Sequence record: MN850584.1
Direction: 5' to 3' (one strand)
DNA length: 64,000 nucleotides
Source: Escherichia phage arall
The position numbers were made by a program, and so were the translations under genes. This document shows positions 167-52,468 of this stretch, piece by piece (the first letter of the stretch is position 1; the number at the start of each line of letters is the position of its first letter). The notes under the pieces are model-generated. The model had not been told where the DNA came from and did no database searches. It was given only the letters and a program-made list of their open reading frames with translations.

Positions 167-1360
167 ATGGCAGCACCAAAATCATGGGAACAATATAAAG
201 AAGAGTGTCAACCTATTGCGAATAATAAAGGGATTGAGATCCTAGGATATGTTGAACCGTTTATAGGTTGTGATACGAAAATGATTCTACGCTGTAGGCA
301 GGAACATGAATGGAAGACTTGTAGTATTAGTAATTTCAAGCACGGTAACAGTTGTCCTATCTGTTCTGGTAAGAAGCCGTTAACATGGGAAACAGAATTG
401 CCGATCTTGGAAGAGATAGCACAGAAGAAGGGGTATCAGGTGTTAGGGTACGTTGGAGAATGGAAAGGGAATAAAACAAAACTTGATTTGTTGTGCCATT
501 GTGGGAATAGATGGCAAAGTACAGCAATTCATCAATTTAAAGGCGGTCGAGGTTGTCCACAATGTAGGGGGGAGAATACAAGGAAGGCACTAACAATGTC
601 CGACGATCAACATATTGCAGATTTCTTTTCTACAGGGAAATTTAAGGAAGGCACTATCTTCACTAACACAGGAACACGGAGTAAAGGATGCAGGCATAGT
701 ATCTGGATGGTTGAATGTCCTGTTTGCTCTCATGATGAATATGTTCAAGCAGGTGTTTGTGATGGTAAATTTTACTCTGAAGGAAATAACCTTAAACGAG
801 GGTGCATTCCGTGTCGTTGTGGGAACTATCGGTATACAGAAGACCAGATCACCTATAGGGTAAAAAAGGAAGTAGAAGGGCAAGGGTATGTCTGGGTAGG
901 TTGGATCGGTAAACCGTCTAGAAGTCACGGTAAGTTTAAATATCTTTGTCTTGTGCATGGGGAACAGACAGGGAGGGCTAATAACTTATTAAGCCTCGGT
1001 CAAGGTTGTCCACAGTGTGCTGGTCATAATCAACAGCAATTATATATTAATATTGTTAAAGATAATGATATTATAGTGGCTCTTAAGTTTGGTATAGCTA
1101 AAGATAGTGATAGGCGATTAAATAGTCAAAATAGTTGTAATATGTTTTTTATGGAGCGTATTTGTTTATATGATTTTAGCACAGTGAAACAATGTAAGGC
1201 TGCTGAAAGAGCTATAAAGAAAAAATTAAAAACTGGTATTTTAACGGAAAGAGAGTTGAAAGACGGTTATACAGAAACAGTAAGTGTTTCTGATTTGGAA
1301 AATCTTCAAGAAATTATTACACAACATGGTGGCAAATTAGTATATAATAAGGAGATGTAA
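167..1360 (+). CDS. Cys-rich repeat protein with C-terminal T5orf172/GIY-YIG-like domain (putative homing-endonuclease-like)
   Basis: RBS AGGAG upstream; three ~55-aa modules each ending GCPQC/SCPIC with upstream CxC/CH pairs; C-terminal LYINIV...KFGIAKD...RRL pattern resembles T5orf172/MUG113 fold; motif recall only. Confidence 0.55.
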   Translation: MAAPKSWEQYKEECQPIANNKGIEILGYVEPFIGCDTKMILRCRQEHEWKTCSISNFKHGNSCPICSGKKPLTWETELPILEEIAQKKGYQVLGYVGEWKGNKTKLDLLCHCGNRWQSTAIHQFKGGRGCPQCRGENTRKALTMSDDQHIADFFSTGKFKEGTIFTNTGTRSKGCRHSIWMVECPVCSHDEYVQAGVCDGKFYSEGNNLKRGCIPCRCGNYRYTEDQITYRVKKEVEGQGYVWVGWIGKPSRSHGKFKYLCLVHGEQTGRANNLLSLGQGCPQCAGHNQQQLYINIVKDNDIIVALKFGIAKDSDRRLNSQNSCNMFFMERICLYDFSTVKQCKAAERAIKKKLKTGILTERELKDGYTETVSVSDLENLQEIITQHGGKLVYNKEM

Positions 1361-3211: not shown

Positions 3212-3307
3212 ATGATCAAGAAAGAAAACAGCTTGACGGTTGGAACGATTAACGCTATCATTCTAGCCGTTCCATTTTGGGTTGTAGTAGCGGTTATTAT
3301 CTTTTAA
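3212..3307 (+). CDS. Small hydrophobic peptide (31 aa, MIKKENSLTVGTINAIILAVPFWVVVAVIIF)
   Basis: ATG with AAAGG upstream, single predicted TM helix. Confidence 0.3.
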   Translation: MIKKENSLTVGTINAIILAVPFWVVVAVIIF

Positions 3308-3315
3308 AAATATTC

Positions 3316-3371
3316 TTGACAACGTTTTTTAATCTGATAAGATGTATCACATAGGGCGGCAATAGTGCCGC
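3316..3371 (+). promoter_or_regulatory. Early promoter cassette: TTGACA-16-TAAGAT + 5' hairpin GCGGCA-ATAG-TGCCGC
   Basis: Conserved module CAC-ATAGGGCGG-hairpin then AACAGAAGAGA leader and ATG at 3396. Confidence 0.7.
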
Positions 3372-3395
3372 TCATAACAGAAGAGAGAAATAATC

Positions 3396-3668
3396 ATGGC
3401 ATCATATAGCGCATCAATGATCGTAATGGGTATCACTGGTAAACCTATGCGCGGTGGCGGATCTTTCGCTAACATCAATATTGATGGGCGTTTATCCCTG
3501 GATGCAGCGATCACCGTGGCACGGGAAACATTTAAAAAAGAATGTAATTTCAATAAACAAGATTATCTCGGTTTCGCTATTGAAAAAACCGCGCGCTTTG
3601 TTGATTATAAAAGCCCGAAAATGGTTGATACTACACTAAAAGCGCAAGATGTAGCATTTTTGCTTTAA
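3396..3668 (+). CDS. Hypothetical early protein (90 aa)
   Basis: ORF directly downstream of promoter-hairpin cassette with A/G-rich RBS. Confidence 0.6.
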   Translation: MASYSASMIVMGITGKPMRGGGSFANINIDGRLSLDAAITVARETFKKECNFNKQDYLGFAIEKTARFVDYKSPKMVDTTLKAQDVAFLL

Positions 3669-3671
3669 GGC

Positions 3672-3732
3672 TTGACACTGAAAAATAATTTGGTAATATA
3701 TACTACATAGGGCGGGGAAATGGTTTCCCGCC
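3672..3732 (+). promoter_or_regulatory. Early promoter cassette: TTGACA-16-TAATAT + hairpin GCGGGGAAA-TGG-TTTCCCGC
   Basis: Same module as 3316. Confidence 0.7.
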
Positions 3733-3754
3733 AAATCAAAGAAAGGGTAACACA

Positions 3755-4117
3755 ATGAGCAAGCAAATCAATACTATCATGTTAAACCTGGTATCTTTCC
3801 GCGACGACGTGAAAAATCTTCCACGTGATGCAGTGGATGCACGTATCGAAAGCTATCGCTCACAGATCGCAACGCTACCGCTAAAACGTGATCAACATGC
3901 CGCTAATATGATGCTTAATGCTATGCTTAAAAAGATGATTCAATGTGATCTTACCCTGGCTTATGAATATGCTGGCGATCTCTTTGTAACATATAGCAAG
4001 CCCGTACCAGGTATGAGCACAACCGAAGAATTGCATGCCTTAAATCTGCGACAAGATGCATGGGATAACATGCGCCGTGTTATGGTATGGGTAGAAAGCG
4101 GTAAAATTTACGAATAA
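3755..4117 (+). CDS. Hypothetical early protein (120 aa)
   Basis: ORF after cassette, RBS AAGGG. Confidence 0.6.
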   Translation: MSKQINTIMLNLVSFRDDVKNLPRDAVDARIESYRSQIATLPLKRDQHAANMMLNAMLKKMIQCDLTLAYEYAGDLFVTYSKPVPGMSTTEELHALNLRQDAWDNMRRVMVWVESGKIYE

Positions 4118-4123
4118 AAACGG

Positions 4124-4176
4124 TTGACATTGCACTAAAACCTGATAAGCTATCTTAAAGCGGGAATAGTTCCCGC
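4124..4176 (+). promoter_or_regulatory. Early promoter cassette: TTGACA-16-TAAGCT + hairpin GCGGGAA-TAG-TTCCCGC
   Basis: Module variant with compensatory stem. Confidence 0.65.
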
Positions 4177-4195
4177 TTACATAGGATAAAACTTT

Positions 4196-4342
4196 ATGAA
4201 ACAATATGTAATGAGTATTCACACCAAAAACGGCGCTACTGTTACGACTCCGGCACGGTTTGCACTTGTAAACCGTTGCAAGAGACTAAAACGAGAGCTA
4301 AAAAACAACCGTGCAACGGGCTTTAAACGCTGGGGAGGATAA
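4196..4342 (+). CDS. Small basic protein (48 aa)
   Basis: ATG 20 nt after hairpin; stop precedes GGAGG RBS of next ORF. Confidence 0.45.
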   Translation: MKQYVMSIHTKNGATVTTPARFALVNRCKRLKRELKNNRATGFKRWGG

Positions 4343-4344
4343 TC

Positions 4345-4605
4345 TTGTTTTTTCTAAAAGTTTTTGATAATGTGATCGCTTTTGAACATGCTGCAACGTT
4401 CAACCTGGCGAGATACGCTATCAGGTTTAAAGATAATGTTTATCCCCGTGCTGGTGGCGGTTACACTATCTTTAATCATCGTAACGCTCAATTAACGGAT
4501 ATAACGAATCCAGATCCTGGAGTGTATCGCATAGGTTGGCTACCGTCAAAAGACGCGGCAAGCATGTTTAAGGTATGTAAACTACTAACAGAAGAGGCAA
4601 ATTAG
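4345..4605 (+). CDS. Hypothetical protein (86 aa), probable TTG start
   Basis: GGAGGA 6 nt upstream of TTG at 4345; no in-frame ATG near RBS. Confidence 0.5.
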   Translation: MFFLKVFDNVIAFEHAATFNLARYAIRFKDNVYPRAGGGYTIFNHRNAQLTDITNPDPGVYRIGWLPSKDAASMFKVCKLLTEEAN

Positions 4606-4606
4606 C

Positions 4607-5161
4607 ATGGGGCGTGAGTATGTGATCCAGTCCTGGGTAAAGCATGACGCTAATGATCCGCGCATAATACCAGATGACATGATCGATCACATGGTAGGGT
4701 ATAGCGGGGAGCAGATAGGAAATCGAGCGGCAAAGAGCAACGGCAACACAAAGGCGCGATCCGTTCGCCCTGGTTGGCTGGCAAATGGTAACGCTGACAT
4801 TACAAGCGCCGCAGATCCAAGCGATGACGCTAAAAATAATCCCTTATACAGCATTGATCCGGCTTTTAAGGTGTTAGAAGAATATCCCGCTAAATTAGCC
4901 GCACTAGATAAAGCATACGAAGAAAAACGGGTGGCATGGACTGTATACAACACCGCTAAAATGGTGCTAGATGCAAAATTGATTAAAGCCCAGGAGAAGA
5001 TCAATAAACTTGTTACCATAGCGCAAGAGGAAGACCAGGACGACCAGGAGGAAGAGGAAGAAATCATGCCTATCCTGGAAGAGGAAGAGATCCAGCCATA
5101 CATGCCGACGGAAGAGGAAAAAAGACAAGCCTTAAAAAATTACGAAAATTGTATTGTGTAA
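4607..5161 (+). CDS. Hypothetical protein with strongly acidic C-terminal tail (EDQDDQEEEEEIMPILEEEEIQ)
   Basis: Start overlaps previous stop (TAGCATG); 184 aa. Confidence 0.6.
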   Translation: MGREYVIQSWVKHDANDPRIIPDDMIDHMVGYSGEQIGNRAAKSNGNTKARSVRPGWLANGNADITSAADPSDDAKNNPLYSIDPAFKVLEEYPAKLAALDKAYEEKRVAWTVYNTAKMVLDAKLIKAQEKINKLVTIAQEEDQDDQEEEEEIMPILEEEEIQPYMPTEEEKRQALKNYENCIV

Positions 5162-5164
5162 GGC

Positions 5165-5220
5165 TTGACATATGCAAACAAGCCCCGTAATATGTACCAC
5201 ATAAAGCGGGGCAACGCCCC
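5165..5220 (+). promoter_or_regulatory. Early promoter cassette: TTGACA-17-TAATAT + hairpin GGGGC-AAC-GCCCC
   Basis: Module variant. Confidence 0.6.
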
Positions 5221-5242
5221 ATAAGGTGAAATAAAAAATCAC

Positions 5243-5270
5243 TTGACACCTGAAATCAGTAAGCTATAAT
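5243..5270 (+). promoter_or_regulatory. Sigma70 consensus promoter TTGACA-16-TATAAT (no hairpin)
   Basis: Near-perfect hexamers upstream of 5308. Confidence 0.7.
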
Positions 5271-5307
5271 GCTTATATAAATTAAAGCGTTACTAAGGAA
5301 TAAAATC

Positions 5308-5673
5308 ATGGCTAAAAATATCAATGTTTCTGCTTATGCTACCCTGGCTAACACTGCTAAAATTGAACTATCCAGCATTGAAGCGGTACATATTAGCGCC
5401 CGTCGCTGGTTTCAAAAGTCTTATGGTAATACTTATTTCTCTTTGATGGTTGACGTTGAGATCGGCGGTAAATTGGTCGAAGTGGTTAACGTTCCGTTTC
5501 AATATGGTTATGGTGATCATTTTGATACCGTCGCCCTGGAAGAGTTTAGCAAGGTTATCAACCTGGAAGGTAAAGACTTTTCAAATTATGCTTACCTTTC
5601 CCGTTTTTGCCGTGACAATGGGATCGCTGTATACAGTCATGCAAGCGATGTTAAACGTAAAAAAGATTTATAA
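5308..5673 (+). CDS. Hypothetical early protein (121 aa)
   Basis: RBS AAGGAATAAAATC-ATG; downstream of tandem promoters. Confidence 0.6.
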   Translation: MAKNINVSAYATLANTAKIELSSIEAVHISARRWFQKSYGNTYFSLMVDVEIGGKLVEVVNVPFQYGYGDHFDTVALEEFSKVINLEGKDFSNYAYLSRFCRDNGIAVYSHASDVKRKKDL

Positions 5674-5679
5674 AAAGCA

Positions 5680-5737
5680 TTGACAGCACGAATAAAAAGC
5701 ATATAATACTTATATCGAGAGCGGGAATAGTTCCCGC
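5680..5737 (+). promoter_or_regulatory. Early promoter cassette: TTGACA-16-TATAAT + hairpin GCGGGAA-TAG-TTCCCGC
   Basis: Module. Confidence 0.7.
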
Positions 5738-5761
5738 CTCACTGAAAAAGAGATTAACATC

Positions 5762-6001
5762 ATGGCTAAATCTAAAATGTACAACGGTCACAAAAATAAA
5801 ACTCATTGGAATGTAAGCCTTTGGATCAACAACGATGAAGGTTTTTATAATCTTGCGCGTGAATTTATCGCAGCTAACACCAATAAGAATGACGCAGCGC
5901 GTGATATGATGTTATTTCTTGAAAGTATGGATCAAGATAAAACGCCAGACGGATTCAAGTTCAGTAAAACCGCGATCCGTGCCGCTATGGTTGGAATGTA
6001 A
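5762..6001 (+). CDS. Hypothetical early protein (79 aa)
   Basis: ORF after cassette. Confidence 0.6.
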   Translation: MAKSKMYNGHKNKTHWNVSLWINNDEGFYNLAREFIAANTNKNDAARDMMLFLESMDQDKTPDGFKFSKTAIRAAMVGM

Positions 6002-6096
6002 AGGAGACATAAAAATGAAACATCGTTCGACCTATCTCACAAAACGTTTTAGCTTAGATCATAAATTGGGCTACTACGGAAGAAATAGAAAATAAT

Positions 6097-6155
6097 TTGA
6101 CAACGTTTTAAATTAGTGTAAGATATATCACATAAGGCGGGAAATGGTTTCCCGC
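6097..6155 (+). promoter_or_regulatory. Early promoter cassette: TTGACA-16-TAAGAT + hairpin GCGGGAAA-TGG-TTTCCCGC
   Basis: Module. Confidence 0.7.
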
Positions 6156-6178
6156 CAAATCAAAGAAAGGTTATAATT

Positions 6179-6406
6179 ATGGCTATCGTTATTGTTCGCG
6201 TATCCGGTACGGTTGGAAGCTCCCAGGTAGTAGCAGTTATCACAGAGAAGAAAGGGGATGATCTTCACTCTTCCTTGAATAGCTGGGCGGTCGCTAATTT
6301 TGGTCAGTGGTCGAGCGTCGAGTATATCGAATCCTACCAGGTGCCAACGATTAGCCTGACCGATCTCAACGTTGATCGTCTGTTATGCCTGGATGAATTA
6401 ATCTGA
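6179..6406 (+). CDS. Hypothetical early protein (75 aa)
   Basis: ORF after cassette. Confidence 0.6.
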   Translation: MAIVIVRVSGTVGSSQVVAVITEKKGDDLHSSLNSWAVANFGQWSSVEYIESYQVPTISLTDLNVDRLLCLDELI

Positions 6407-6415
6407 AAAAGATTG

Positions 6416-6471
6416 TTGACACGGGAAAGAAAAAGAGTAAACTGTATTACATAGGGCGGCAATAGTGCCGC
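6416..6471 (+). promoter_or_regulatory. Early promoter cassette: TTGACA-16-TAAACT + hairpin GCGGCA-ATAG-TGCCGC
   Basis: Near-identical to cassette at 3316. Confidence 0.7.
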
Positions 6472-6496
6472 TCATAACAGAAGAGAGATTATCACG

Positions 6497-6712
6497 ATGG
6501 CTAATATCCGCACACTGTTAAAAAATGCAAAGCAAGTTTTATTTTCAGATGACGAATATTTTAATAAAGATATCACAGGCGTGAAAAATCTTAAAGATGT
6601 GAAAGATGTGATAGGTATTCGCGGATCTTTACGTAAAGGTGACACATACGGTAACAAGGTGCAATATAAGTTAGATCAGTTTTATGATTTTACTTTGACA
6701 ATTATTTCATAA
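6497..6712 (+). CDS. Hypothetical early protein (71 aa)
   Basis: ORF after cassette. Confidence 0.6.
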   Translation: MANIRTLLKNAKQVLFSDDEYFNKDITGVKNLKDVKDVIGIRGSLRKGDTYGNKVQYKLDQFYDFTLTIIS

Positions 6713-6718
6713 AACCGC

Positions 6719-6779
6719 TTGCAATCTTAATAAAATAAAGTAAACTAAATTCATCAAGGCGGTGGAATAGCCCACCGCC
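6719..6779 (+). promoter_or_regulatory. Early promoter cassette: TTGCAA-16-TAAACT + hairpin GGCGGTGG-AATAGC-CCACCGCC
   Basis: Module with different stem sequence (covariation). Confidence 0.6.
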
Positions 6780-6803
6780 TAACAAAGAGAAGAGGAAAAT
6801 ATC

Positions 6804-6974
6804 ATGATCACTTTCGCCACCCGTGAAGCCGCTCGCAACGTTGCACGTAAAGTTAACGCCGCCAACCTGGGCGCTACGCTTAAAGCCCCGGTGAAAGATG
6901 AATCAGGTAAATGGATCTTCCCTGGTCTGCGTCACGCTGATAAGCTGGGAACGTTAACGCTAAAAAATAAATAA
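6804..6974 (+). CDS. Small protein (56 aa, MITFATREAARNVARKVNAAN...)
   Basis: ATG 25 nt after hairpin with AGAGGAAAAT RBS; below ORF-track size cut-off. Confidence 0.5.
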   Translation: MITFATREAARNVARKVNAANLGATLKAPVKDESGKWIFPGLRHADKLGTLTLKNK

Positions 6975-6981
6975 GATCCGC

Positions 6982-7039
6982 TTGACAGTAGCATCATTTA
7001 TAAGTAAAGTAACAACAACGGCGGGAAATGGTTTCCCGC
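6982..7039 (+). promoter_or_regulatory. Early promoter cassette: TTGACA-17-TAAAGT + hairpin GCGGGAAA-TGG-TTTCCCGC
   Basis: Module. Confidence 0.7.
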
Positions 7040-7060
7040 CATCAATAAAGAGATAAAATC

Positions 7061-7420
7061 ATGAAATCAGTAAAAGCAATTAAAACCTACATTGTGTCGG
7101 CTATTTCTTTTGAAGGTACTACAACAGAAAAAGAAAAGATCACCGAACTGATGCGCCGTTTTAACTCTGAATACTGGTATCCCGATAATCAAAAACGTTA
7201 CAATTATAACGTGATCAAGGCGATAGCCTCATGGTTACAAGGTTTACCGTCAGACATTAACATCGCCTTTGATTATAACGAGATTGATCATTTATTAATT
7301 GAATGGAAGTACATAAAAGAAACAAGCAAAGAAACAACCGTTACCCGTGAGCGGGAAAATTATTGGTTATATATTGCAAGCATGATCGTAATCCTGGCAA
7401 AACAGCATAACGTGGCGTAA
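7061..7420 (+). CDS. Hypothetical early protein (119 aa)
   Basis: ORF after cassette. Confidence 0.6.
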   Translation: MKSVKAIKTYIVSAISFEGTTTEKEKITELMRRFNSEYWYPDNQKRYNYNVIKAIASWLQGLPSDINIAFDYNEIDHLLIEWKYIKETSKETTVTRERENYWLYIASMIVILAKQHNVA

Positions 7421-7435
7421 TTAAGAGGAAGAAAC

Positions 7436-7573
7436 ATGAACGCATCACAGCAGATCGAAAAATTCAACCGCAGCAAGGCGCGTAAAGATTGGAACGAAGA
7501 GATCACCAAAAAAGGCGACAAGCGGAACAAAACAAAGAGAGATCGCAGCACAAAAAGATACTGGAACGAATAA
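7436..7573 (+). CDS. Small lysine/arginine-rich protein (45 aa)
   Basis: AAGAGGAAGAAAC-ATG; ends just before terminator. Confidence 0.45.
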   Translation: MNASQQIEKFNRSKARKDWNEEITKKGDKRNKTKRDRSTKRYWNE

Positions 7574-7580
7574 CAAAAAA

Positions 7581-7603
7581 GGGCGCAATAAGCGCCCTTT
7601 TAG
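7581..7603 (+). terminator. Rho-independent terminator (GGGCGC-AATAA-GCGCCC + TTTT)
   Basis: GC stem + T-run. Confidence 0.7.
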
Positions 7604-7692
7604 CTTATATAGAGGCTTGTTACCCATAGGCAATGGTAACGCCAGGATAAGCCTATAAATCAACGTTAAACGGCTTTACAGGAGCTTTAAAA

Positions 7693-7875
7693 ATGAAATT
7701 AGACGAAATAAGCAAGGCACTAGCCCAGGGGCAAAGGTTATGCGCCCGATATCGTGATCAATATGGCTTCATAACTAGCGGCGTGATCCTGGGGATTGAA
7801 GGCAATAAGATTTTTATTGACACGTTGAAAAACGTTGTATATAGTGACAATATAATCTCAATAAAACATATATGA
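7693..7875 (+). CDS. Hypothetical protein (60 aa)
   Basis: ORF with RBS AGGAG. Confidence 0.5.
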   Translation: MKLDEISKALAQGQRLCARYRDQYGFITSGVILGIEGNKIFIDTLKNVVYSDNIISIKHI

Positions 7876-7883
7876 GGCAAGAA

Positions 7884-8285
7884 ATGAAAAAATTATTGAT
7901 CGCTGGTTTAATCTCTTTTGGCATGGTTGGAACATCTAGCGCGGCGATATCCTCCACAGTAGCAGAATTAAGCGCCGTTGATGCAATGGAAAACGTCATG
8001 CTTATTAATAATGCGATCCCCGATGAAATCATGGAGGATTCACACATGATCGCTTATGGTGCTGTTACACAACTAACGGCAAAAATAGATAAATCTATTG
8101 TTAACGGCTTAAATGAAGATGTGCCATGTGAAATTATTACCAGTGTGCTGACTACTCAAAATTTTACGCCGTGGTTAAAAAGTATTCAAAAAGTACACAG
8201 TACAGCCGCAGATCGTAGCAATGAAAAACTAGTGTCAGCACTTGCAACGTATACCCTAGCAAAATGCACCGAGATAAAAGATTGA
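7884..8285 (+). CDS. Secreted/periplasmic hypothetical protein (signal peptide MKKLLIAGLISFGMVGTSSA)
   Basis: Start moved to MKKLL (RBS GAGGCAAGAA); classic n-h-c signal peptide with AxA. Confidence 0.55.
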   Translation: MKKLLIAGLISFGMVGTSSAAISSTVAELSAVDAMENVMLINNAIPDEIMEDSHMIAYGAVTQLTAKIDKSIVNGLNEDVPCEIITSVLTTQNFTPWLKSIQKVHSTAADRSNEKLVSALATYTLAKCTEIKD

Positions 8286-8311
8286 CAACATAGAAAGCAC
8301 GTTATAAGATA
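8283..8311 (+). promoter_or_regulatory. Sigma70-like promoter TTGACA-17-TAAGAT
   Basis: Hexamers upstream of 8333. Confidence 0.5.
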
Positions 8312-8332
8312 CACACAACAAAGGAGAACTAC

Positions 8333-8635
8333 ATGAACGGCATAGCTAAAACGTTTTTTCTTTTTTCTGGTGTAAATGATCCATCAATAAAAGTCGATAG
8401 TGTAAAAGAAAACAATACTATCACCGCTAAATTGTTTCAAGATGAAACAAATAACGTGCTAATCATTAATCTTAAAGAAATAACGAAAGGTTATTATACT
8501 ATTGCTTACCATGCGATCTATCATGCGGGTACTAGTGAGGAAGTGCAAACAAGCAACAACGAAAGCGCGGCGCTACCTGGTGATCTGGTGCTGGGCGTTA
8601 TCAGTTTAATTGTCAATGATTTTTTTAAGGAGTAA
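8333..8635 (+). CDS. Hypothetical protein (100 aa), possible N-terminal signal sequence
   Basis: RBS AAGGAGAACTAC-ATG. Confidence 0.55.
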   Translation: MNGIAKTFFLFSGVNDPSIKVDSVKENNTITAKLFQDETNNVLIINLKEITKGYYTIAYHAIYHAGTSEEVQTSNNESAALPGDLVLGVISLIVNDFFKE

Positions 8636-8639
8636 AACC

Positions 8640-8735
8640 ATGCCCTATTTACATTTATTTTTCGGTATCTTATTGACAGGATCTTTTTTCTTCTGTATGC
8701 TTGTTTCTATTGTAAACCACGTTTTAAGACATTAA
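8640..8735 (+). CDS. Small membrane peptide (31 aa)
   Basis: RBS AAGGAG 8 nt upstream; one hydrophobic helix. Confidence 0.35.
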   Translation: MPYLHLFFGILLTGSFFFCMLVSIVNHVLRH

Positions 8736-8744
8736 GGAAACAGC

Positions 8745-8864
8745 ATGAAAATTATTCCCGTACAGTATAGCGTAATAAATCCAGCATATGAGGAAGGAAG
8801 GAAAACAAGCATGGCTTTATGTTGTATTGCTACTATAGCCATGTTGTTATATATTGTGTTTTAA
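8745..8864 (+). CDS. Small membrane peptide (39 aa)
   Basis: RBS AAGGAAACAGC-ATG; C-terminal hydrophobic segment. Confidence 0.35.
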   Translation: MKIIPVQYSVINPAYEEGRKTSMALCCIATIAMLLYIVF

Positions 8865-8893
8865 TAGGTTTTATAGTTGTACGCTTTAAAGGC

Positions 8894-8921
8894 TTGACAA
8901 TTTTTTGTTATGCTTTAAAAT
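8894..8921 (+). promoter_or_regulatory. Sigma70-like promoter TTGACA-16-TAAAAT
   Basis: Hexamers upstream of 8965. Confidence 0.5.
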
Positions 8922-8964
8922 ATATCTTGAAAACGGCAAAGGCCGCAAACAAAAGGGTAAAATT

Positions 8965-9288
8965 ATGAAATCTGTGATCGGTGTTTATTTGGATAACTCT
9001 GATTTTTTCTATCATCGCGCTCGTTTCCTTGATGCGATTGAAATGATAGAATCAGGCTTTAAAGAGTATCGCCTTGCACATGATGACCTAGAAGCATTAC
9101 AGGGCAATAGTGTTTTTACATTGCAAGCGAAAGCACTATGCAAAAGCCGGATCGACATTGCGAGCAAAAAGATAGAACGCGGCATGTCCTGGTTACGCAC
9201 CGCAGAAATCAACATGGGGCAATGGTACGGCGAAAACTTAGAAAATAAACGCACTTTTGTAAATGTAGAAAATCTTAAAGATTATTGA
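8965..9288 (+). CDS. Hypothetical protein (107 aa)
   Basis: Start set at MKSVIG with RBS AAAGGGTAAAATT. Confidence 0.55.
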   Translation: MKSVIGVYLDNSDFFYHRARFLDAIEMIESGFKEYRLAHDDLEALQGNSVFTLQAKALCKSRIDIASKKIERGMSWLRTAEINMGQWYGENLENKRTFVNVENLKDY

Positions 9289-9350
9289 TTGACAGCACAC
9301 CTAACAGATAGTATATTGTATCTCATAGAGCGGGGAAATGGTTTCCCCGC
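9289..9350 (+). promoter_or_regulatory. Early promoter cassette: TTGACA-17-TATATT + hairpin GCGGGGAAA-TGG-TTTCCCCGC
   Basis: Module. Confidence 0.7.
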
Positions 9351-9370
9351 CTTAACAGAAGAGATAAGCT

Positions 9371-9655
9371 ATGAAGATCACAAAAGCACTTTCCAACTAT
9401 GCAGCACGTCGCGGATTATGTTTAACCGTTGAAAATTTAGGGAAAGAAGATTTTTTGTGCTTTTGGGAGCTTGAGAATGATAATGAGTGGATCTTCTCTT
9501 ATTCTATCTGCGAAGATCAAAACGGTTGTTTATTAACCTGGCGCGGTAATATCTATCTACCGGAAGAAATCAAAGAAGAATTACCAGGCACGATCATGAC
9601 TGAGAAACAGCTTAAGGAAGTGATCAATTTTGTAGGGCAAAACATTAAAAAATAA
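9371..9655 (+). CDS. Hypothetical early protein (94 aa)
   Basis: ORF after cassette. Confidence 0.6.
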   Translation: MKITKALSNYAARRGLCLTVENLGKEDFLCFWELENDNEWIFSYSICEDQNGCLLTWRGNIYLPEEIKEELPGTIMTEKQLKEVINFVGQNIKK

Positions 9656-9656
9656 T

Positions 9657-9716
9657 TTGACACTAGGCAAACAACGTAGTAAAGTTTATCACATAGGGCG
9701 GGAAATGGTTTCCCGC
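9657..9716 (+). promoter_or_regulatory. Early promoter cassette: TTGACA-17-TAAAGT + hairpin GCGGGAAA-TGG-TTTCCCGC
   Basis: Module. Confidence 0.7.
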
Positions 9717-9739
9717 TCACAACAGAAGAGAAACAAATC

Positions 9740-9910
9740 ATGATCCCAACTATGTTTTATGTATCGCGCAAAGGTCACAATATTTTTTGGTCTGAAGATT
9801 TAAATGAAGCCATGACGTTTGCCCGTGATCGTGTTGCTATCGGTGGCGTTAACATTACTGTAACCGATGAAAACGGCATTGAATACTATAACGGCGACGA
9901 TGAAGAGTAA
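9740..9910 (+). CDS. Small protein (56 aa)
   Basis: ATG 24 nt after hairpin, RBS AGAGAAACAAATC. Confidence 0.5.
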   Translation: MIPTMFYVSRKGHNIFWSEDLNEAMTFARDRVAIGGVNITVTDENGIEYYNGDDEE

Positions 9911-9918
9911 TTAATGAG

Positions 9919-9939
9919 GCGGGGGGAGTATTCCCCGCC
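9919..9939 (+). promoter_or_regulatory. Conserved 5'-leader hairpin (GGCGGGG-GGAGTAT-TCCCCGCC) without clear -35
   Basis: Same flanking context (…GTCAATAAAGAGG…ATG) as other cassettes. Confidence 0.45.
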
Positions 9940-9958
9940 GTCAATAAAGAGGTAAATC

Positions 9959-10228
9959 ATGAAAATATCATTGGACGTTGCAATCAAGGCCATCGAATCC
10001 GGTTACACCCTGGTAAAAGATGATAAGGCTAAAATAGTGCATCATGTTAACAAGGAAACAGGCGAAAGCATGATCACATATAAAGCCGCCTACTTTCTCC
10101 AATCAGTAGCAGATCCGCGCGTACAACGCCAGGTTACAGCGGCTATTGCTAAAAAATTATGTGCTTTACAGGGCACAAGTTTTAACGAGATCGCCCCGTG
10201 TTTTGACTGGTCGAGCTTGAAAAAATAG
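9959..10228 (+). CDS. Hypothetical early protein (89 aa)
   Basis: ORF after hairpin. Confidence 0.6.
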   Translation: MKISLDVAIKAIESGYTLVKDDKAKIVHHVNKETGESMITYKAAYFLQSVADPRVQRQVTAAIAKKLCALQGTSFNEIAPCFDWSSLKK

Positions 10229-10229
10229 T

Positions 10230-10290
10230 TTGATAATATGCTGTTATCTGGTAAAGTGTACGACATAGGGCGAGGCAATAAGGCAACGCC
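10230..10290 (+). promoter_or_regulatory. Early promoter cassette: TTGATA-16-TAAAGT + hairpin GGGCG-N14-CGCCC
   Basis: Module variant. Confidence 0.5.
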
Positions 10291-10310
10291 CATTAATGAG
10301 GGGTAGAATC

Positions 10311-10415
10311 ATGTTAGAGAAAATTTTCACGGTTGTAATAGTGGGCCTGGCGTTATCGGTTGGATTGGTTGCAACTATGGCTAACATGATCCTATCTTCC
10401 CACGGTATCGGCTAA
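10311..10415 (+). CDS. Small membrane peptide (34 aa)
   Basis: RBS GAGGGGTAGAATC-ATG; hydrophobic. Confidence 0.35.
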   Translation: MLEKIFTVVIVGLALSVGLVATMANMILSSHGIG

Positions 10416-10429
10416 AAGAGAAACACAAC

Positions 10430-10594
10430 ATGAAAACAGAAATCATTATTGAAATCATCAACGGTTATAAAGAAGCCTTTATTTTTGCCGAACCAGCGAC
10501 GGATAACAATGGGGAATATATTGAGAATCTAGACGATTATGATTTTTCTCCTAGCGCCCTGAAATATACACTACTAACACCGCCAACCGTTTAA
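10430..10594 (+). CDS. Small acidic protein (54 aa)
   Basis: RBS AAGAGAAACACAAC-ATG. Confidence 0.4.
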   Translation: MKTEIIIEIINGYKEAFIFAEPATDNNGEYIENLDDYDFSPSALKYTLLTPPTV

Positions 10595-10672
10595 CTGATG
10601 CAGCTAAATTAATGCCATCGGTGCATGCTTACATTGGTGAAGATAATTTGATTTATATTGAATAAAAAGTAT

Positions 10673-10729
10673 TGACACCGATCCCCAATATGTTATTATT
10701 TACCACGTAAGCGGGAAATGGTTTCCCGC
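10673..10729 (+). promoter_or_regulatory. Early promoter cassette: TTGACA-16-TATTAT + hairpin GCGGGAAA-TGG-TTTCCCGC
   Basis: Module. Confidence 0.7.
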
Positions 10730-10753
10730 TAGGTAATCAAAAAGGTAAATACT

Positions 10754-11143
10754 ATGCGCAACCTGGTTTCTGTTTCTAACGTTGAAAAATTCCAATCTTT
10801 ACATGGTATCGTTAACAACGTGGCGCCTTTTTTAGTAAACGGCTTGATTGCAAAGATGAAAAATAAACATCATGCGGCATGGTCTGCTTACTGCTTTGAT
10901 AATGATGAAAAAGCGGCTGAAATGATGTTAAATATGCTGTTAGACAGTGTAGAATCATCTTTACCGGAAAACATCGCAGAAGAGATCACCTATCGTTATA
11001 ATATGGCGATCACTTACCAGGAGGTTGCGCAATTCAATATGATGGACGATGACGAACAACAGGATCAGGAAATGTTTTGGGAGTATGCAGATCGTAAATC
11101 GGCTTTTGATGAAAAGTTAGCGATGTATTATAACGAATATTAA
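10754..11143 (+). CDS. Hypothetical early protein (129 aa), acidic
   Basis: ORF after cassette. Confidence 0.6.
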   Translation: MRNLVSVSNVEKFQSLHGIVNNVAPFLVNGLIAKMKNKHHAAWSAYCFDNDEKAAEMMLNMLLDSVESSLPENIAEEITYRYNMAITYQEVAQFNMMDDDEQQDQEMFWEYADRKSAFDEKLAMYYNEY

Positions 11144-11159
11144 TACACGGTAAAAGAAA

Positions 11160-11184
11160 GGGGCGCACTAAGCGCCCTTTTTTG
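11160..11184 (+). terminator. Rho-independent terminator (GGGCGC-ACTAA-GCGCCC + TTTTTT)
   Basis: GC stem + T-run. Confidence 0.8.
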
Positions 11185-11528
11185 TATTCTTTTTTCACAA
11201 TGGAAGCGACACGTAAAGAATAGGCGTAAAGGTGGCGTAAAACCATCTAAAACCGACTGTAACCGCTTAAACAAGGTAGGAATGATTAATCACCTTACCA
11301 GGATGAAAAAGCTGTTATAAAGCTATCTAGGGCGTTTAAAGCACATAGGAAATAATTTGCTTTTTATCTTGCCTTTTATCCTGCTTTTGATTATTATTAT
11401 GGAACGGGCGGCACCTGGGGACAGGGGAAGATAATCACCGGAAGATCCCGCTATATATTAATAGCTAATACCTATTAAACAACAAAACATCAAAGGTATA
11501 AACTATCAAATCTTTACAATTCTACCTA

Positions 11529-11557
11529 TTGACACCGGATCACGCTTACACTATTAT
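11529..11557 (+). promoter_or_regulatory. Sigma70 promoter TTGACA-17-TATTAT
   Basis: Consensus hexamers; the ORF-track TTG 'start' at 11529 is the -35 element. Confidence 0.65.
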
Positions 11558-11603
11558 TTATCACGTAGGGCAAATCATTTTAAACGGTAAACGAGGAATC
11601 ACC

Positions 11604-15515: not shown

Positions 15516-15884
15516 ATGCAAGAGAATAGTAAAGTGTGTAGCATGAAAAGCAGCCCCTATTTGCTACAATTTTATGAGTGGTGGTTAGAACAAGAAGATA
15601 CAAACTTTAGCAAAAAGCATTATGGTCTTTGCACGTGTCTTGTAGACTTTTTGTACAATATTGCTTGGATAAAAGATGTTGAGAATGTATCAAAGCTCCA
15701 ATCCTCTGTACGAGAGGAAATGAAGGAACAATTTAAGAAAGCGGGTTTGAACCATTTACATCCGTTTAATACGGATTTCTCGCACTACTTTACGGAAACA
15801 GAACTAGGCATTGCACACCTTAATAAAGAACGTGTACAATGGGTGATTGATCGTATTCGTGATATGGAGGAATACAATGGTTAA
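15516..15884 (+). CDS. Hypothetical protein, paralog family A (LLQFY...HPFN...HLNKERVQWV)
   Basis: RBS AAGGAG; shares blocks with 16794..17378. Confidence 0.6.
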   Translation: MQENSKVCSMKSSPYLLQFYEWWLEQEDTNFSKKHYGLCTCLVDFLYNIAWIKDVENVSKLQSSVREEMKEQFKKAGLNHLHPFNTDFSHYFTETELGIAHLNKERVQWVIDRIRDMEEYNG

Positions 15885-16086
15885 GTTTAAAACTTTCTGT
15901 GCAATCACTGTTTGTCTTATTCTTGCATACGTGTTATTCTCTAGTATCATTCGTTTAGGTGAGTATATGGCAAGAGAAGCTCGTGAAAGTGAAGCTAAAA
16001 AAGAACAGTGCATCGTGTTAAAGCACCAAAGGGATGCTGAAAAATTTCTTGAACAGGATTGTGGGCGCTATGTGAATTATAATTAG
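15877..16086 (+). CDS. Small membrane-anchored protein, paralog family B (…KEQCIVLKHQRDAEKFLEQDC)
   Basis: Start at MVKFKTF overlapping previous stop; similar to 20875..21099. Confidence 0.55.
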   Translation: MVKFKTFCAITVCLILAYVLFSSIIRLGEYMAREARESEAKKEQCIVLKHQRDAEKFLEQDCGRYVNYN

Positions 16087-20874: not shown

Positions 20875-21099
20875 ATGAAGTCTGTAAACAAGTTGCAACA
20901 ATTTTTGTTATCAACAGCAATCTTTTTGCTTTTGTTAATTGGTATTCTGTATGGTGCATCTAACTTATACAATCTACATAATGATGTAGAACAGAATAAA
21001 GAGAAGTGCATCATTCTAAAACACAAGAAACAAGCAGAAGATTTCTTAAAGAATAAGTGTTACAACTACATTGATTATGAGGAGACAAACAATGATTAA
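20875..21099 (+). CDS. Small membrane-anchored protein, paralog family B
   Basis: RBS AAGGAGGG; N-terminal TM; KEKCIILKHKKQAEDFLKNKC block. Confidence 0.55.
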   Translation: MKSVNKLQQFLLSTAIFLLLLIGILYGASNLYNLHNDVEQNKEKCIILKHKKQAEDFLKNKCYNYIDYEETNND

Positions 21100-22961: not shown

Positions 22962-23174
22962 ATGACAATGTTGCTTCGTATGTTTGTGTTTCTTATGTTC
23001 TGGATTATCGTTGGTAACGGTATTGTGTTTTTGATTTTTCCTGAAGTAATGACAGGTAATGAAAATAAGGCAGTGCCTTACATTATGCTTATCGGTTACG
23101 GTATTGGTACACTCGGATTACTGTTTGCTGACTGGTTAGTCAATACTTTGTTCTCTAAGTACAGGAACAACTAA
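22962..23174 (+). CDS. Membrane protein (70 aa, two TM segments)
   Basis: RBS AGGAGGAAGAATAAT. Confidence 0.55.
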   Translation: MTMLLRMFVFLMFWIIVGNGIVFLIFPEVMTGNENKAVPYIMLIGYGIGTLGLLFADWLVNTLFSKYRNN

Positions 23175-52255: not shown

Positions 52256-52468
52256 CTATTCATCATCTGAACTCTCTGTTGAGAATGTTCGTGTGTAGGG
52301 ACACTGACGACTTGCAGAAACCTCTATAACCTTGTCGTACATACCGTTAGAGTAAAAACAGTATTTTGTACTTCCAGAAACTTGTTCTCCAGAATTAATT
52401 AAAGTTATTTGACCAGCATAAGAATAAGAACTGATTACTAAAAGTAAACCGACAAGAAGTTTTTTCAT
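52256..52468 (-). CDS. Small secreted protein (signal peptide MKKLLVGLLLVISSYSYA)
   Basis: n-h-c signal peptide, 70 aa. Confidence 0.55.
   Translation of the reverse strand: MKKLLVGLLLVISSYSYAGQITLINSGEQVSGSTKYCFYSNGMYDKVIEVSASRQCPYTRTFSTESSDDE

What the first reader, a model, noticed from the sequence alone, without database searches (positions are those of the whole stretch)
7884..8635. Early secreted or periplasmic proteins
7884..8285 has a classic signal peptide and 8333..8635 a probable one. Two small membrane peptides follow at 8640 and 8745. These may act in superinfection exclusion or envelope remodelling.
Basis: partly seen in the sequence, partly recalled or inferred. Interest (0 to 1): 0.35.

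Follow-up and report, generated by a model that had tools for sequence, protein, structure and literature searches.

The report
One exported phage protein, not two
In this phi92-like E. coli phage, one small early gene (the counterpart of phi92 gp239) encodes a protein almost certainly exported to the periplasm, its neighbour (gp240) does not, and two tiny membrane peptides follow; all belong to phage-only families of unknown function, so the finding is real but fairly ordinary.

Summary
The window is a Justusliebigvirus (phi92-like myovirus), 97-99% identical to published genomes.

- **ORF 7884..8285 (Phi92_gp239, 133 aa):** it has a textbook Sec/signal-peptidase-I signal peptide, MKK-LLIAGLISFGMVG-TSSA|A. 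The phi92 GenBank record already annotates it (SignalP 3.0, p=1.000). All six divergent relatives (31-44% identity) keep the signal peptide and two invariant cysteines. AlphaFold leaves residues 1-20 unstructured and folds the rest as a confident four-helix protein. That fold has no match in PDB or BFVD.
- **ORF 8333..8635 (gp240):** it has no signal peptide. The N-terminal hydrophobic run is only 8 residues with no AxA site. Homologues carry Q/E/R/K there. AlphaFold packs the N-terminus into a confident beta-sheet-plus-helix fold. The family is acidic and soluble.
- **Peptides at 8640 (31 aa) and 8745 (39 aa, phrog_10979):** both are real single-pass membrane peptides, intact in all 11 genomes compared. 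The second is conserved across genera.
- **Early expression:** this is inferred from dense consensus sigma-70 promoters, one of them conserved in position upstream of gp239 homologues.
- **Function:** it is untested. A periplasmic superinfection-exclusion or envelope-protection role is the best guess. The protein is not a Spackle or RI homologue.

Low-to-moderate interest.

The parts
7577..7601 (.). Bidirectional terminator-like hairpin (AAAAGGGCGC-TTATT-GCGCCCTTTT) marking the upstream edge of the gp238-to-gp241 gene block
   Evidence: terminator scan; inverted repeat I4. Paula and PATM annotate terminators at this place.
7693..7875 (+). gp238-like 60-aa gene (phrog_25271), the conserved upstream neighbour. 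Its 3' end contains the promoter of the next gene.
   Evidence: A 61-aa homologue precedes the gp239 homologue in L004, L010, L011 and L013.
7817..7845 (+). Sigma-70-like promoter (TTGACA-N17-TATAGT, 11 of 12 matches) upstream of the gp239-like gene
   Evidence: A TTGACA promoter sits at the same distance (-67/-68) in Klebsiella phage phi1_175008 and in metagenomic phage L009. Both hexamers are invariant in 11 Justusliebigvirus sequences.
7884..8285 (+). gp239-like gene (133 aa), precursor of a small periplasmic four-helix protein. SD GAGG lies at 7874-7877.
   Evidence: Matches phrog_27054. 28 of 40 variable sites fall at third codon positions. AlphaFold pLDDT is 86.3.
7884..7943 (+). Signal peptide, residues 1-20 (MKKLLIAGLISFGMVGTSSA), with predicted signal-peptidase-I cleavage after SSA
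   Evidence: phi92 sig_peptide feature: SignalP 3.0 HMM p=1.000, cleavage p=0.759. Heuristic scan. Conserved in all homologues. pLDDT is below 50 for exactly residues 1-20.
7944..8282 (+). Mature domain of 113 aa: four helices (24-41, 47-77, 82-101, 107-132), acidic in this window's protein (net charge -7; -5 to +1 in the relatives), with invariant C82 and C128
   Evidence: No structural neighbour in PDB or BFVD.
8282..8310 (+). Sigma-70-like promoter (TTGACA-N17-TAAGAT) overlapping the gp239 stop codon. Presumed start of the gp240-C-D transcript.
   Evidence: TTGACA promoters sit at -58/-59 of the gp240 homologues in L010, L011 and L013.
8333..8635 (+). gp240-like gene (100 aa, phrog_10737): soluble acidic protein built from a beta-sheet and a C-terminal helix, with no signal peptide
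   Evidence: No PDB match by fold or by sequence.
8640..8735 (+). 31-aa single-pass membrane peptide (MPYLHLFFGILLTGSFFFCMLVSIVNHVLRH). Its SD AAGGAG overlaps the end of gp240.
   Evidence: Intact in 11 of 11 genomes, with only T13S and M20I changes. Annotated as a CDS in phage JohannJBalmer/Bas62. An unrelated 35-aa TM peptide occupies the same slot in L011-L013.
8745..8864 (+). 39-aa peptide with a polar N-terminus (motif Y-S/T-V-x-N-P-A/V) and a C-terminal transmembrane segment; member of phrog_10979
   Evidence: E=1.2e-8. Homologues follow the gp240 homologue in Phapecoctavirus ASO2A_004 and in L011-L013. Intact in 11 of 11 genomes.
8819..8968 (+). 49-aa ORF that overlaps the 39-aa peptide and the next promoter. 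Probably not a gene.
   Evidence: Frameshifted by a 1-nt insertion in IMG/VR locus L007. It contains the promoter at 8894-8921. No homologue sits at this place in other genera. It is nevertheless annotated as a CDS in Bas62.
8894..8921 (+). Sigma-70-like promoter (TTGACA-N16-TAAAAT) for the gp241-like gene (8965..9288)
9327..9350 (.). Terminator-like hairpin of the repeated GGGAAATGGTTTCCC family, marking the downstream edge of the block
   Evidence: Paula terminator_013, mapped from L001 5328-5351. Repeat family D1.

Best explanation
**What is there (shown or strongly inferred).** The block is a short run of early genes in a phi92-like phage, transcribed by host RNA polymerase.
- The gp239-like protein is made with a cleavable Sec signal peptide and exported across the inner membrane.
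- Signal peptidase I cuts it after Ser-Ser-Ala20. It then folds in the periplasm as a soluble, acidic four-helix protein.
- A disulfide probably joins C82 (start of helix 3) to C128 (end of helix 4).
- The next transcript encodes a cytoplasmic acidic protein (gp240-like) and two single-pass inner-membrane peptides.

**Function (inferred, not shown).** I think the periplasmic protein most likely protects the already infected cell from the outside. It could bind a periplasmic step of infection by a second phage, such as a tail-tip enzyme or the DNA-entry route. This is the role Spackle plays for T4, but reached with an unrelated fold. The membrane peptides would act on the inner membrane in host takeover or exclusion.

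**How likely.** I put localisation of gp239-like in the periplasm at about 0.85-0.9. I put the exclusion function at about 0.3. The confidence figure given refers to the function.
For: **Signal peptide.**
- Sequence features.
- SignalP 3.0 result carried in the phi92 record.
- Kept in all relatives at 31-44% identity, although signal peptides drift quickly.
- No lipobox and no twin-arginine motif (read directly from the sequences).

**Export.**
- The two cysteines are invariant across the family.
- They lie at opposite ends of an antiparallel helix pair in the model. A conserved cysteine pair is what one expects of an oxidised periplasmic protein.
- AlphaFold leaves residues 1-20 disordered and folds 21-133 at pLDDT above 90.

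**Early, host-polymerase expression.**
- 17 of the 26 strict TTGACA-N15-18-TAnnnT sites on the + strand lie in 3.3-11.6 kb. In the scanned stretch (5.5-11.5 kb) they sit just upstream of small genes.
- The site before gp239 is conserved in position in three deep lineages.

**Accessory, envelope-directed slot.**
- In Phapecoctavirus the same position, between the gp238-like and gp240-like genes, holds a 70-aa protein with two hydrophobic segments instead (phrog_30003).
- gp239-like occurs in 57 phage records and gp240-like in 103.
- Homologues occur mostly on phage contigs of about 128-154 kb (the rest are short fragments), in the same gene order where neighbours can be seen.
Against: - No experiment, expression data or literature on gp239 or gp240 was found.
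- There is no sequence or structural similarity to any exclusion protein. hhalign against T4 Spackle aligns only signal-peptide residues 1-12. Foldseek finds nothing in PDB or BFVD at E below 0.1 other than the protein itself.
- SignalP itself could not be run here, and cleavage is a prediction.
- T4 RI shows that a predicted cleavable signal can instead be a releasable signal anchor (my own knowledge of the RI literature).
- The disulfide is inferred from secondary-structure geometry. No inter-cysteine distance was available.
Confidence: 0.3

Rival explanations
1. The periplasmic gp239-like protein is a host-takeover or anti-defence factor. It would bind and block a host periplasmic or envelope component, such as a nuclease, a protease, a cell-wall enzyme, an envelope-stress sensor, or an envelope-located defence or prophage exclusion system. 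It would not act on incoming phages.
For: - The localisation evidence is the same as for the best explanation.
- It sits among small early genes of unknown function, next to host-interaction genes (a CapR-domain protein and NADAR at 167-1912).
- It is a small helical protein, acidic in this window (net charge -7), which is typical of binders and inhibitors (general knowledge).
- The slot is swapped for a different envelope protein in a sister genus, as expected of arms-race genes.
Against: No match to any PADLOC, Pfam or NCBIfam family. No target can be named. Nothing separates this reading from exclusion.
Confidence: 0.3
2. gp239-like is a lysis-timing regulator. It would be a periplasmic antiholin or sensor of the T4 RI type, possibly held by an uncleaved, releasable signal-anchor rather than a cleaved signal peptide.
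For: - The precursor is only somewhat longer than RI (133 vs 97 aa), and the periplasmic domain is helical.
- The hydrophobic core is fairly rich in Gly and Ser (LLIAGLISFGMVG), as SAR domains are.
Against: - No sequence similarity to RI.
- No RI structure appears among the best 50 Foldseek PDB matches, none of which is significant.
- Homologues have strongly hydrophobic cores and clean AxA sites (IIIAAILATMSASATA|D and similar), which favours ordinary cleavage.
- The gene lies in the small-gene early block of the window, and no lysis gene was recognised in the flanking genes examined.
Confidence: 0.08
3. One reading: both gp239-like and gp240-like are secreted proteins.
For: - gp240-like begins with M-N-G-I-A-K followed by a short hydrophobic stretch, TFFLFSGV.
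- Its C-terminal helix reaches Kyte-Doolittle 1.61 over 19 residues in this phage.
Against: - The hydrophobic run is 8 residues, with no AxA site.
- In 19 homologues the stretch contains Q, E, R or K, and the n-region is often uncharged.
- AlphaFold includes residues 1-10 in the fold at pLDDT 94.
- The C-terminal segment falls to KD19 of 1.26 or less in homologues.
- phi92's SignalP-based annotation flags gp239 but not gp240.
Confidence: 0.03

Closest known systems
Phi92_gp239, Phi92_gp240 and their orthologues in Justusliebigvirus (phrog_27054, phrog_10737)
   Same: 97-100% identical proteins in the same gene order. The phi92 GenBank record already carries the signal-peptide feature on gp239.
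   Different: Essentially nothing differs. These are the same genes, annotated as hypothetical proteins. The two small peptides are not annotated in phi92 itself.
T4 Spackle (Sp, gp61.3), a periplasmic superinfection-exclusion protein that inhibits the gp5 tail lysozyme
   Same: A small phage-encoded protein with an MKK-type cleavable signal peptide. My own knowledge: the mature Spackle domain is helical, contains cysteines and acts in the periplasm.
   Different: No homology outside the signal peptide: hhalign aligns residues 1-12 only. No Spackle structure appears among the best 50 Foldseek PDB matches. The mature domain is larger (113 vs about 75 aa). Activity has not been tested.
T4 RI antiholin
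   Same: Small phage protein with an N-terminal export signal and a helical periplasmic domain (own knowledge).
   Different: No sequence similarity and no fold match. The homologues carry canonical cleavage sites rather than SAR-like anchors.
T4 Imm, HK97 gp15 and P22 SieA: small inner-membrane exclusion proteins
   Same: The 31-aa and 39-aa peptides are small inner-membrane proteins from an early region, like these (own knowledge of the class).
   Different: They are much shorter, with one transmembrane segment each. No sequence comparison with these proteins was made; no named family other than phrog_10979 ('membrane protein') matched in PHROGs, Pfam, NCBIfam or PADLOC.
phrog_10979 ('membrane protein; moron, auxiliary metabolic gene and host takeover')
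   Same: The 39-aa peptide matches over residues 6-39 (E=1.2e-8). Phapecoctavirus ASO2A_004 matches at 1.4e-22.
   Different: The family has no tested function. The label describes only hydrophobicity and genomic setting.

Membership tests
Sec-type (signal peptidase I) signal peptide, tested on gp239-like 7884..8285 | Positively charged n-region | tested here: met
   MKK gives +2 with no acidic residue before the core. All homologues start M-[KR]-K.
Sec-type (signal peptidase I) signal peptide, tested on gp239-like 7884..8285 | Uninterrupted hydrophobic h-region of about 10-15 residues | tested here: met
   LLIAGLISFGMVG. The 12-residue Kyte-Doolittle mean is 2.46, and 2.12-2.57 in homologues.
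Sec-type (signal peptidase I) signal peptide, tested on gp239-like 7884..8285 | Small neutral residues at -3 and -1 (AxA rule) a few residues after the core | tested here: met
   S-S-A|A at residues 18-20. Homologues have AVA|D, ATA|D, AMA|D and ALA|S. phi92's SignalP 3.0 places cleavage after residue 20.
Sec-type (signal peptidase I) signal peptide, tested on gp239-like 7884..8285 | Not a lipoprotein (lipobox Cys) and not a Tat (RR) signal | tested here: met
   No L-x-x-C lipobox and no twin arginine in any of the 7 sequences (read).
Sec-type (signal peptidase I) signal peptide, tested on gp239-like 7884..8285 | Actual export and cleavage in vivo | not testable with these tools
   Needs PhoA fusions, fractionation or N-terminal sequencing.
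Sec-type signal peptide, tested on gp240-like 8333..8635 | h-region of at least 10 residues plus an AxA site, conserved in homologues | tested here: not met
   The run is 8 residues with no site. Homologues have polar or charged residues in the stretch. The N-terminus is part of the fold at pLDDT 94.
T4 Spackle (gp61.3) family | Sequence homology of the mature domain | tested here: not met
   hhalign of the family profile against T4 Sp aligns only residues 1-12, the signal peptide, at probability 40%.
T4 Spackle (gp61.3) family | Shared fold | tested here: not met
   The Foldseek PDB search gives no match at E of 0.001 or better. The best is E=0.85 with TM 0.31, and no Spackle entry is among the best 50 matches.
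T4 Spackle (gp61.3) family | Inhibition of a tail-associated lysozyme, and an exclusion phenotype | not testable with these tools
   Requires an experiment.
T4 RI antiholin family | Sequence homology | tested here: not met
   hhalign probability 0.06%.
phrog_27054 / phrog_10737 / phrog_10979 | Significant profile match | tested here: met
   E = 2.5e-56, 5.7e-42 and 1.2e-8 respectively. The phrog_27054 profile covers only residues 55-133.
Single-pass membrane peptide (8640..8735 and 8745..8864) | One uncharged hydrophobic segment of about 19 residues with Kyte-Doolittle mean above 1.6, in an ORF that is conserved | tested here: met
   KD19 is 2.32 and 2.24. ORFs are intact in 11 of 11 genomes. 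Cross-genus homologues exist for the 39-aa peptide. Membrane insertion itself was not tested.

The most novel reading that the evidence does not exclude
gp239-like founds a new, structurally unprecedented family of disulfide-stapled periplasmic four-helix proteins confined to phi92-like and related 150-kb myoviruses. Together with the cytoplasmic acidic gp240-like protein and the two membrane peptides, it would form one envelope-spanning module, with parts in the periplasm, inner membrane and cytoplasm. That module would exclude superinfecting phages or disarm an envelope-based host defence by a mechanism unrelated to Spackle/Imm.
Probability: 0.1. Interest if true: 0.6.

Novelty: new member of a known kind. 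Interest (0 to 1): 0.22.

Why it matters
Phi92-like phages have very broad host ranges and are used in therapeutic cocktails, yet their early genes are almost all of unknown function. An exported early protein is one of the few such genes whose site of action can be named. If it blocks secondary infection, it would affect how phages in a cocktail interfere with one another. It would also add a second, structurally unrelated solution to the problem that T4 solves with Spackle.

As it stands, the result mainly corrects an over-reading (one exported protein, not two). It also adds two unannotated small membrane genes to the map.

Tried and rejected
- **Word-indexed homologue searches** for both proteins returned only near-identical sequences. 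The exhaustive HMMER search found just 6 clusters for gp239-like.
- **IMG/VR scan** gave only 2 loci.
- **Family and structure libraries.** Pfam, NCBIfam and PADLOC gave nothing. The PDB sequence-profile search gave nothing. Foldseek against PDB and BFVD gave no significant neighbour for gp239-like. For gp240-like there were only weak Pur-alpha and capping-protein-like sheet-plus-helix hits (E about 0.2, TM below 0.5). I do not regard these as evidence, especially as the protein is acidic.
- **Rfam** scan of 6.5-10.5 kb gave no credible RNA.
- **Literature** searches for phi92 gp239, transcriptomes of Justusliebigvirus or Phapecoctavirus, and superinfection exclusion in Stephanstirmvirinae found nothing relevant. 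The phi92 genome paper is not held. A mention of phi92 in a Hok-toxin preprint turned out to be only a host-range citation.
- **Readings rejected.**
  - The alternative start at 7872: the SD GAGG is placed for 7884, and all homologues start M-[KR]-K.
  - The 41-aa TTG start at 8610 for the first peptide: there is no SD.
  - The 49-aa ORF 8819..8968: it is frameshifted in L007 and overlies a promoter.
- **Not possible here.** I could not measure the Cys-Cys distance in the model or run SignalP/TMHMM.

Full report
**Identity of the window.** Bases 7000-10000 are 97-99% identical to more than 50 published Justusliebigvirus genomes. These are phi92-like myoviruses of the Stephanstirmvirinae, with genomes of about 146 kb; examples are ESCO9, Paula and phi92. 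The two ORFs in the finding are the orthologues of Phi92_gp239 (7884..8285) and Phi92_gp240 (8333..8635). The window carries no tRNA genes. Its + strand from about 2 to 25 kb holds small genes of unknown function, after a CapR-domain protein and a NADAR protein. The - strand from 26 to 60 kb holds nucleotide-metabolism genes: ribonucleotide reductase, ligase, a dTDP-sugar enzyme and a cytosine methylase.

**Checking the observation: gp239-like.**
- The start at 7884 has the SD GAGG six bases upstream. The 7872 ATG does not.
- The N-terminus is MKK / LLIAGLISFGMVG / TSSA|A: a +2 n-region, a 13-residue hydrophobic core, and small residues at -3 and -1.
- I applied a simple heuristic: an uncharged run of at least 12 residues, an 8-residue hydrophobicity of at least 2.0, a positive n-region, and an AxA-like site. 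Only 5 of 239 ATG-ORFs of at least 40 aa in the window pass, and this is one of them.
- The phi92 GenBank record already carries a sig_peptide feature on residues 1-20 (SignalP 3.0 HMM, signal probability 1.000, cleavage probability 0.759). It carries none on gp240.

**Family evidence for export.**
- An exhaustive HMMER scan of 1.84 billion representative proteins with the mature domain found only six clusters, at 34-98% identity over the matched stretch. A seventh relative is in Klebsiella phage phi1_175008.
- Every relative begins M-[KR]-K, has a 12-16-residue hydrophobic core, and ends in AVA|D, ATA|D, AMA|D or ALA|S.
- Only nine columns are invariant in the whole alignment. Two of them are the cysteines C82 and C128.
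- AlphaFold2, run on the 7-sequence alignment, gives pLDDT below 50 for exactly residues 1-20 and above 90 for nearly all the rest. The helices are 24-41, 47-77, 82-101 and 107-132.
- C82 opens helix 3 and C128 closes helix 4. In an antiparallel hairpin these ends lie side by side. That is my inference; I had no coordinates.
- A conserved cysteine pair in a protein with a conserved signal peptide is what an oxidised periplasmic protein looks like.
- Within Justusliebigvirus, 28 of 40 variable sites in the gene are at third codon positions.

**Checking the observation: gp240-like.** This part of the finding does not hold.
- The only N-terminal hydrophobic run is TFFLFSGV (8 residues), and there is no cleavage-type site.
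- I used an alignment of positional homologues from other phages to retrieve 21 database relatives.
- Their N-termini read MIQANTLMMFQEVQN, MSQANTVFMFQRVEN and MIGQANTFYMFAKVTNN. This is a conserved sequence motif interrupted by Q, E, R or K, not a signal peptide.
- AlphaFold2 on 20 sequences gives pLDDT 93.5 with residues 1-10 at 94. The fold is strands 2-4, 20-26, 29-35, 42-51, 54-63 and 71-75, plus a C-terminal helix 83-97.
- That helix reaches Kyte-Doolittle 1.61 over 19 residues in this phage, but its counterpart reaches at most 1.26 in relatives. All members are acidic, with net charge -4 to -9.
- I conclude it is a soluble, presumably cytoplasmic protein.

**The two small peptides.**
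- 8640..8735 encodes MPYLHLFFGILLTGSFFFCMLVSIVNHVLRH, with SD AAGGAG eight bases upstream. 8745..8864 encodes MKIIPVQYSVINPAYEEGRKTSMALCCIATIAMLLYIVF, with SD AAGGA. Each has one hydrophobic segment.
- Both ORFs are intact in all 11 Justusliebigvirus sequences I aligned, with only conservative changes.
- The 39-aa peptide matches phrog_10979. It has clear homologues directly after the gp240 homologue in Phapecoctavirus (ASO2A_004, MSKYTVEYTVENPVVSEGKK...) and in a deep metagenomic lineage (L011-L013, MRKPIEYTTVNPAYK...).
- In that same lineage, a different 35-aa hydrophobic peptide sits between the gp240 homologue and the 39-aa peptide, in the slot of the 31-aa peptide.
- phi92, Paula and most other records do not annotate these peptides. 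Bas62 annotates the 31-aa one.
- Bas62 also annotates a 49-aa ORF (8819..8968). This ORF overlaps the 39-aa gene and the next promoter, and it is frameshifted in IMG/VR locus L007. I regard it as spurious.

**Expression.**
- Strict TTGACA-N15-18-TAnnnT sites occur 26 times on the + strand of the window. Seventeen of them fall in 3.3-11.6 kb.
- In the scanned stretch (5.5-11.5 kb) they sit just upstream of small genes.
- Sites lie at 7817-7845 (before gp239-like, inside the end of gp238-like), at 8282-8310 (overlapping the gp239 stop, before gp240-like), and at 8894-8921 (before gp241-like).
- The hexamers of the first two are invariant among 11 genomes.
- A TTGACA promoter sits 67-68 bases upstream of the gp239 homologue in this window, in the Klebsiella phage, and in metagenomic phage L009. 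These proteins share only 32-34% identity.
- Terminator-like hairpins at 7577-7601 and about 9327-9350 bound the gp238-to-gp241 block.
- This pattern is that of host-polymerase early genes, but the timing is inferred. I found no transcriptome for this phage group.

**What it is not.**
- No Pfam, NCBIfam or PADLOC family matches any of the four proteins.
- Profile searches of PDB sequences find nothing.
- Foldseek with the confident gp239-like model finds no PDB neighbour (best E=0.85, TM 0.31). In BFVD it finds only itself.
- I fetched T4 sp and rI from the T4 record. The gp239 family profile aligns to Spackle only over signal-peptide residues 1-12, and not at all to RI.
- gp240-like has only weak sheet-plus-helix resemblances.

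**Context that bears on function.**
- Where neighbours can be seen, gp239 homologues lie mostly on phage contigs of about 128-154 kb in the order gp236-like, gp237-like, gp238-like, gp239-like, gp240-like. One lineage (L009) lacks the gp238-like gene, and two homologues are known only from short contigs.
- gp240-like is more widespread (103 phage records) than gp239-like (57).
- In Phapecoctavirus the slot between gp238-like and gp240-like holds a 70-aa protein with two hydrophobic segments (phrog_30003) in place of the periplasmic protein.
- A position that alternates between a periplasmic and a membrane protein suggests an accessory, envelope-directed function under diversifying pressure.
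- That fits superinfection exclusion, and it fits equally well interference with a host envelope component or defence. I cannot separate these two readings. I rate each at about 0.3, a lysis-timing role at about 0.08, and leave the rest unassigned.
- BASEL work shows that phi92-like phages end adsorption on the LPS core glucose and are very sensitive to restriction. It says nothing about these genes.

**Verdict.**
- The signal peptide on gp239 is already in the public annotation.
- New here are:
  - the family-wide conservation of the signal peptide and the cysteine pair;
  - a confident four-helix model with no structural neighbour;
  - the conserved promoter;
  - the slot swap in Phapecoctavirus;
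  - the recurrent trio of gp240, a membrane peptide and phrog_10979.
- Function remains untested, and interest is modest.

Noticed in passing
window 3300-11600, + strand: Seventeen strict sigma-70 consensus sites (perfect TTGACA, 15-18 nt spacer, TAnnnT) lie in 8.3 kb, against 9 in the remaining 55 kb of that strand. In the scanned part (5.5-11.5 kb) they sit just upstream of small genes. This looks like a host-polymerase early region with one promoter per gene.
   Followed up: partly
window 7021-7053, 9333-9364, 9697-9731, 9921-9952: A repeated intergenic palindrome, GGCGGGAAATGGTTTCCCGCC, is followed by ...ACAGAAGAGA and then a start codon. It appears to be a family of terminator hairpins reused between early genes.
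   Followed up: no
window 15877..16086, 20875..21099, 22962..23174 (+) and 52256..52468 (-): Four further small ORFs (69-74 aa) have signal-peptide-like or signal-anchor-like N-termini. The first two are paralogues (phrog_15662 / phrog_23204). The third is phrog_10205 'membrane protein'. The fourth (MKKLLVGLLLVISSYSYAG|Q, phrog_4641) looks like another exported protein, among the metabolism genes.
   Followed up: partly
phrog_27054 versus window 7884..8285: The PHROG profile for this family is 79 positions long and matches only residues 55-133. The member genes were evidently called from an internal Met, so PHROG-based annotation loses the signal peptide.
   Followed up: no
L005 (Phapecoctavirus ASO2A) 319..531: In Phapecoctavirus the slot between the gp238-like and gp240-like genes holds a 70-aa protein with two hydrophobic segments (phrog_30003) instead of the periplasmic protein.
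   Followed up: partly
Public records matched: Some public names look unsupported. The 100-aa gp240 homologue of JLBYU50 is called 'putative NAD(+) synthase'. A 71-aa gp234 homologue in PATM and inny is called 'phosphoribosylpyrophosphate synthetase'. Several records labelled 'Campylobacter phage' (MG0656xx) are 98-99% identical to these E. coli phages.
   Followed up: no
window 7436..7573 (gp237-like, 45 aa); L010 1994..2131: This is a very basic 45-aa protein (MNASQQIEKFNRSKARKDWNEEITKKGDKRNKTKRDRSTKRYWNE), conserved two genes upstream. Its L010 homologue has a weak precomputed Pfam hit to T7 gene 1.1.
   Followed up: no
window 7640-7692: No sigma-70-like site precedes gp238-like. The sequence CCTATAAATCA there resembles the T4-type late motif TATAAATA and the rV5 motif reported in PMC3606486. 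This was read by eye only.
   Followed up: no
LC739536.1 (phiWec187): This genome record starts at the base matching window 8620, inside the end of gp240 and 20 bases before the first small peptide. It is probably an arbitrary linearisation point, but I did not check.
   Followed up: no
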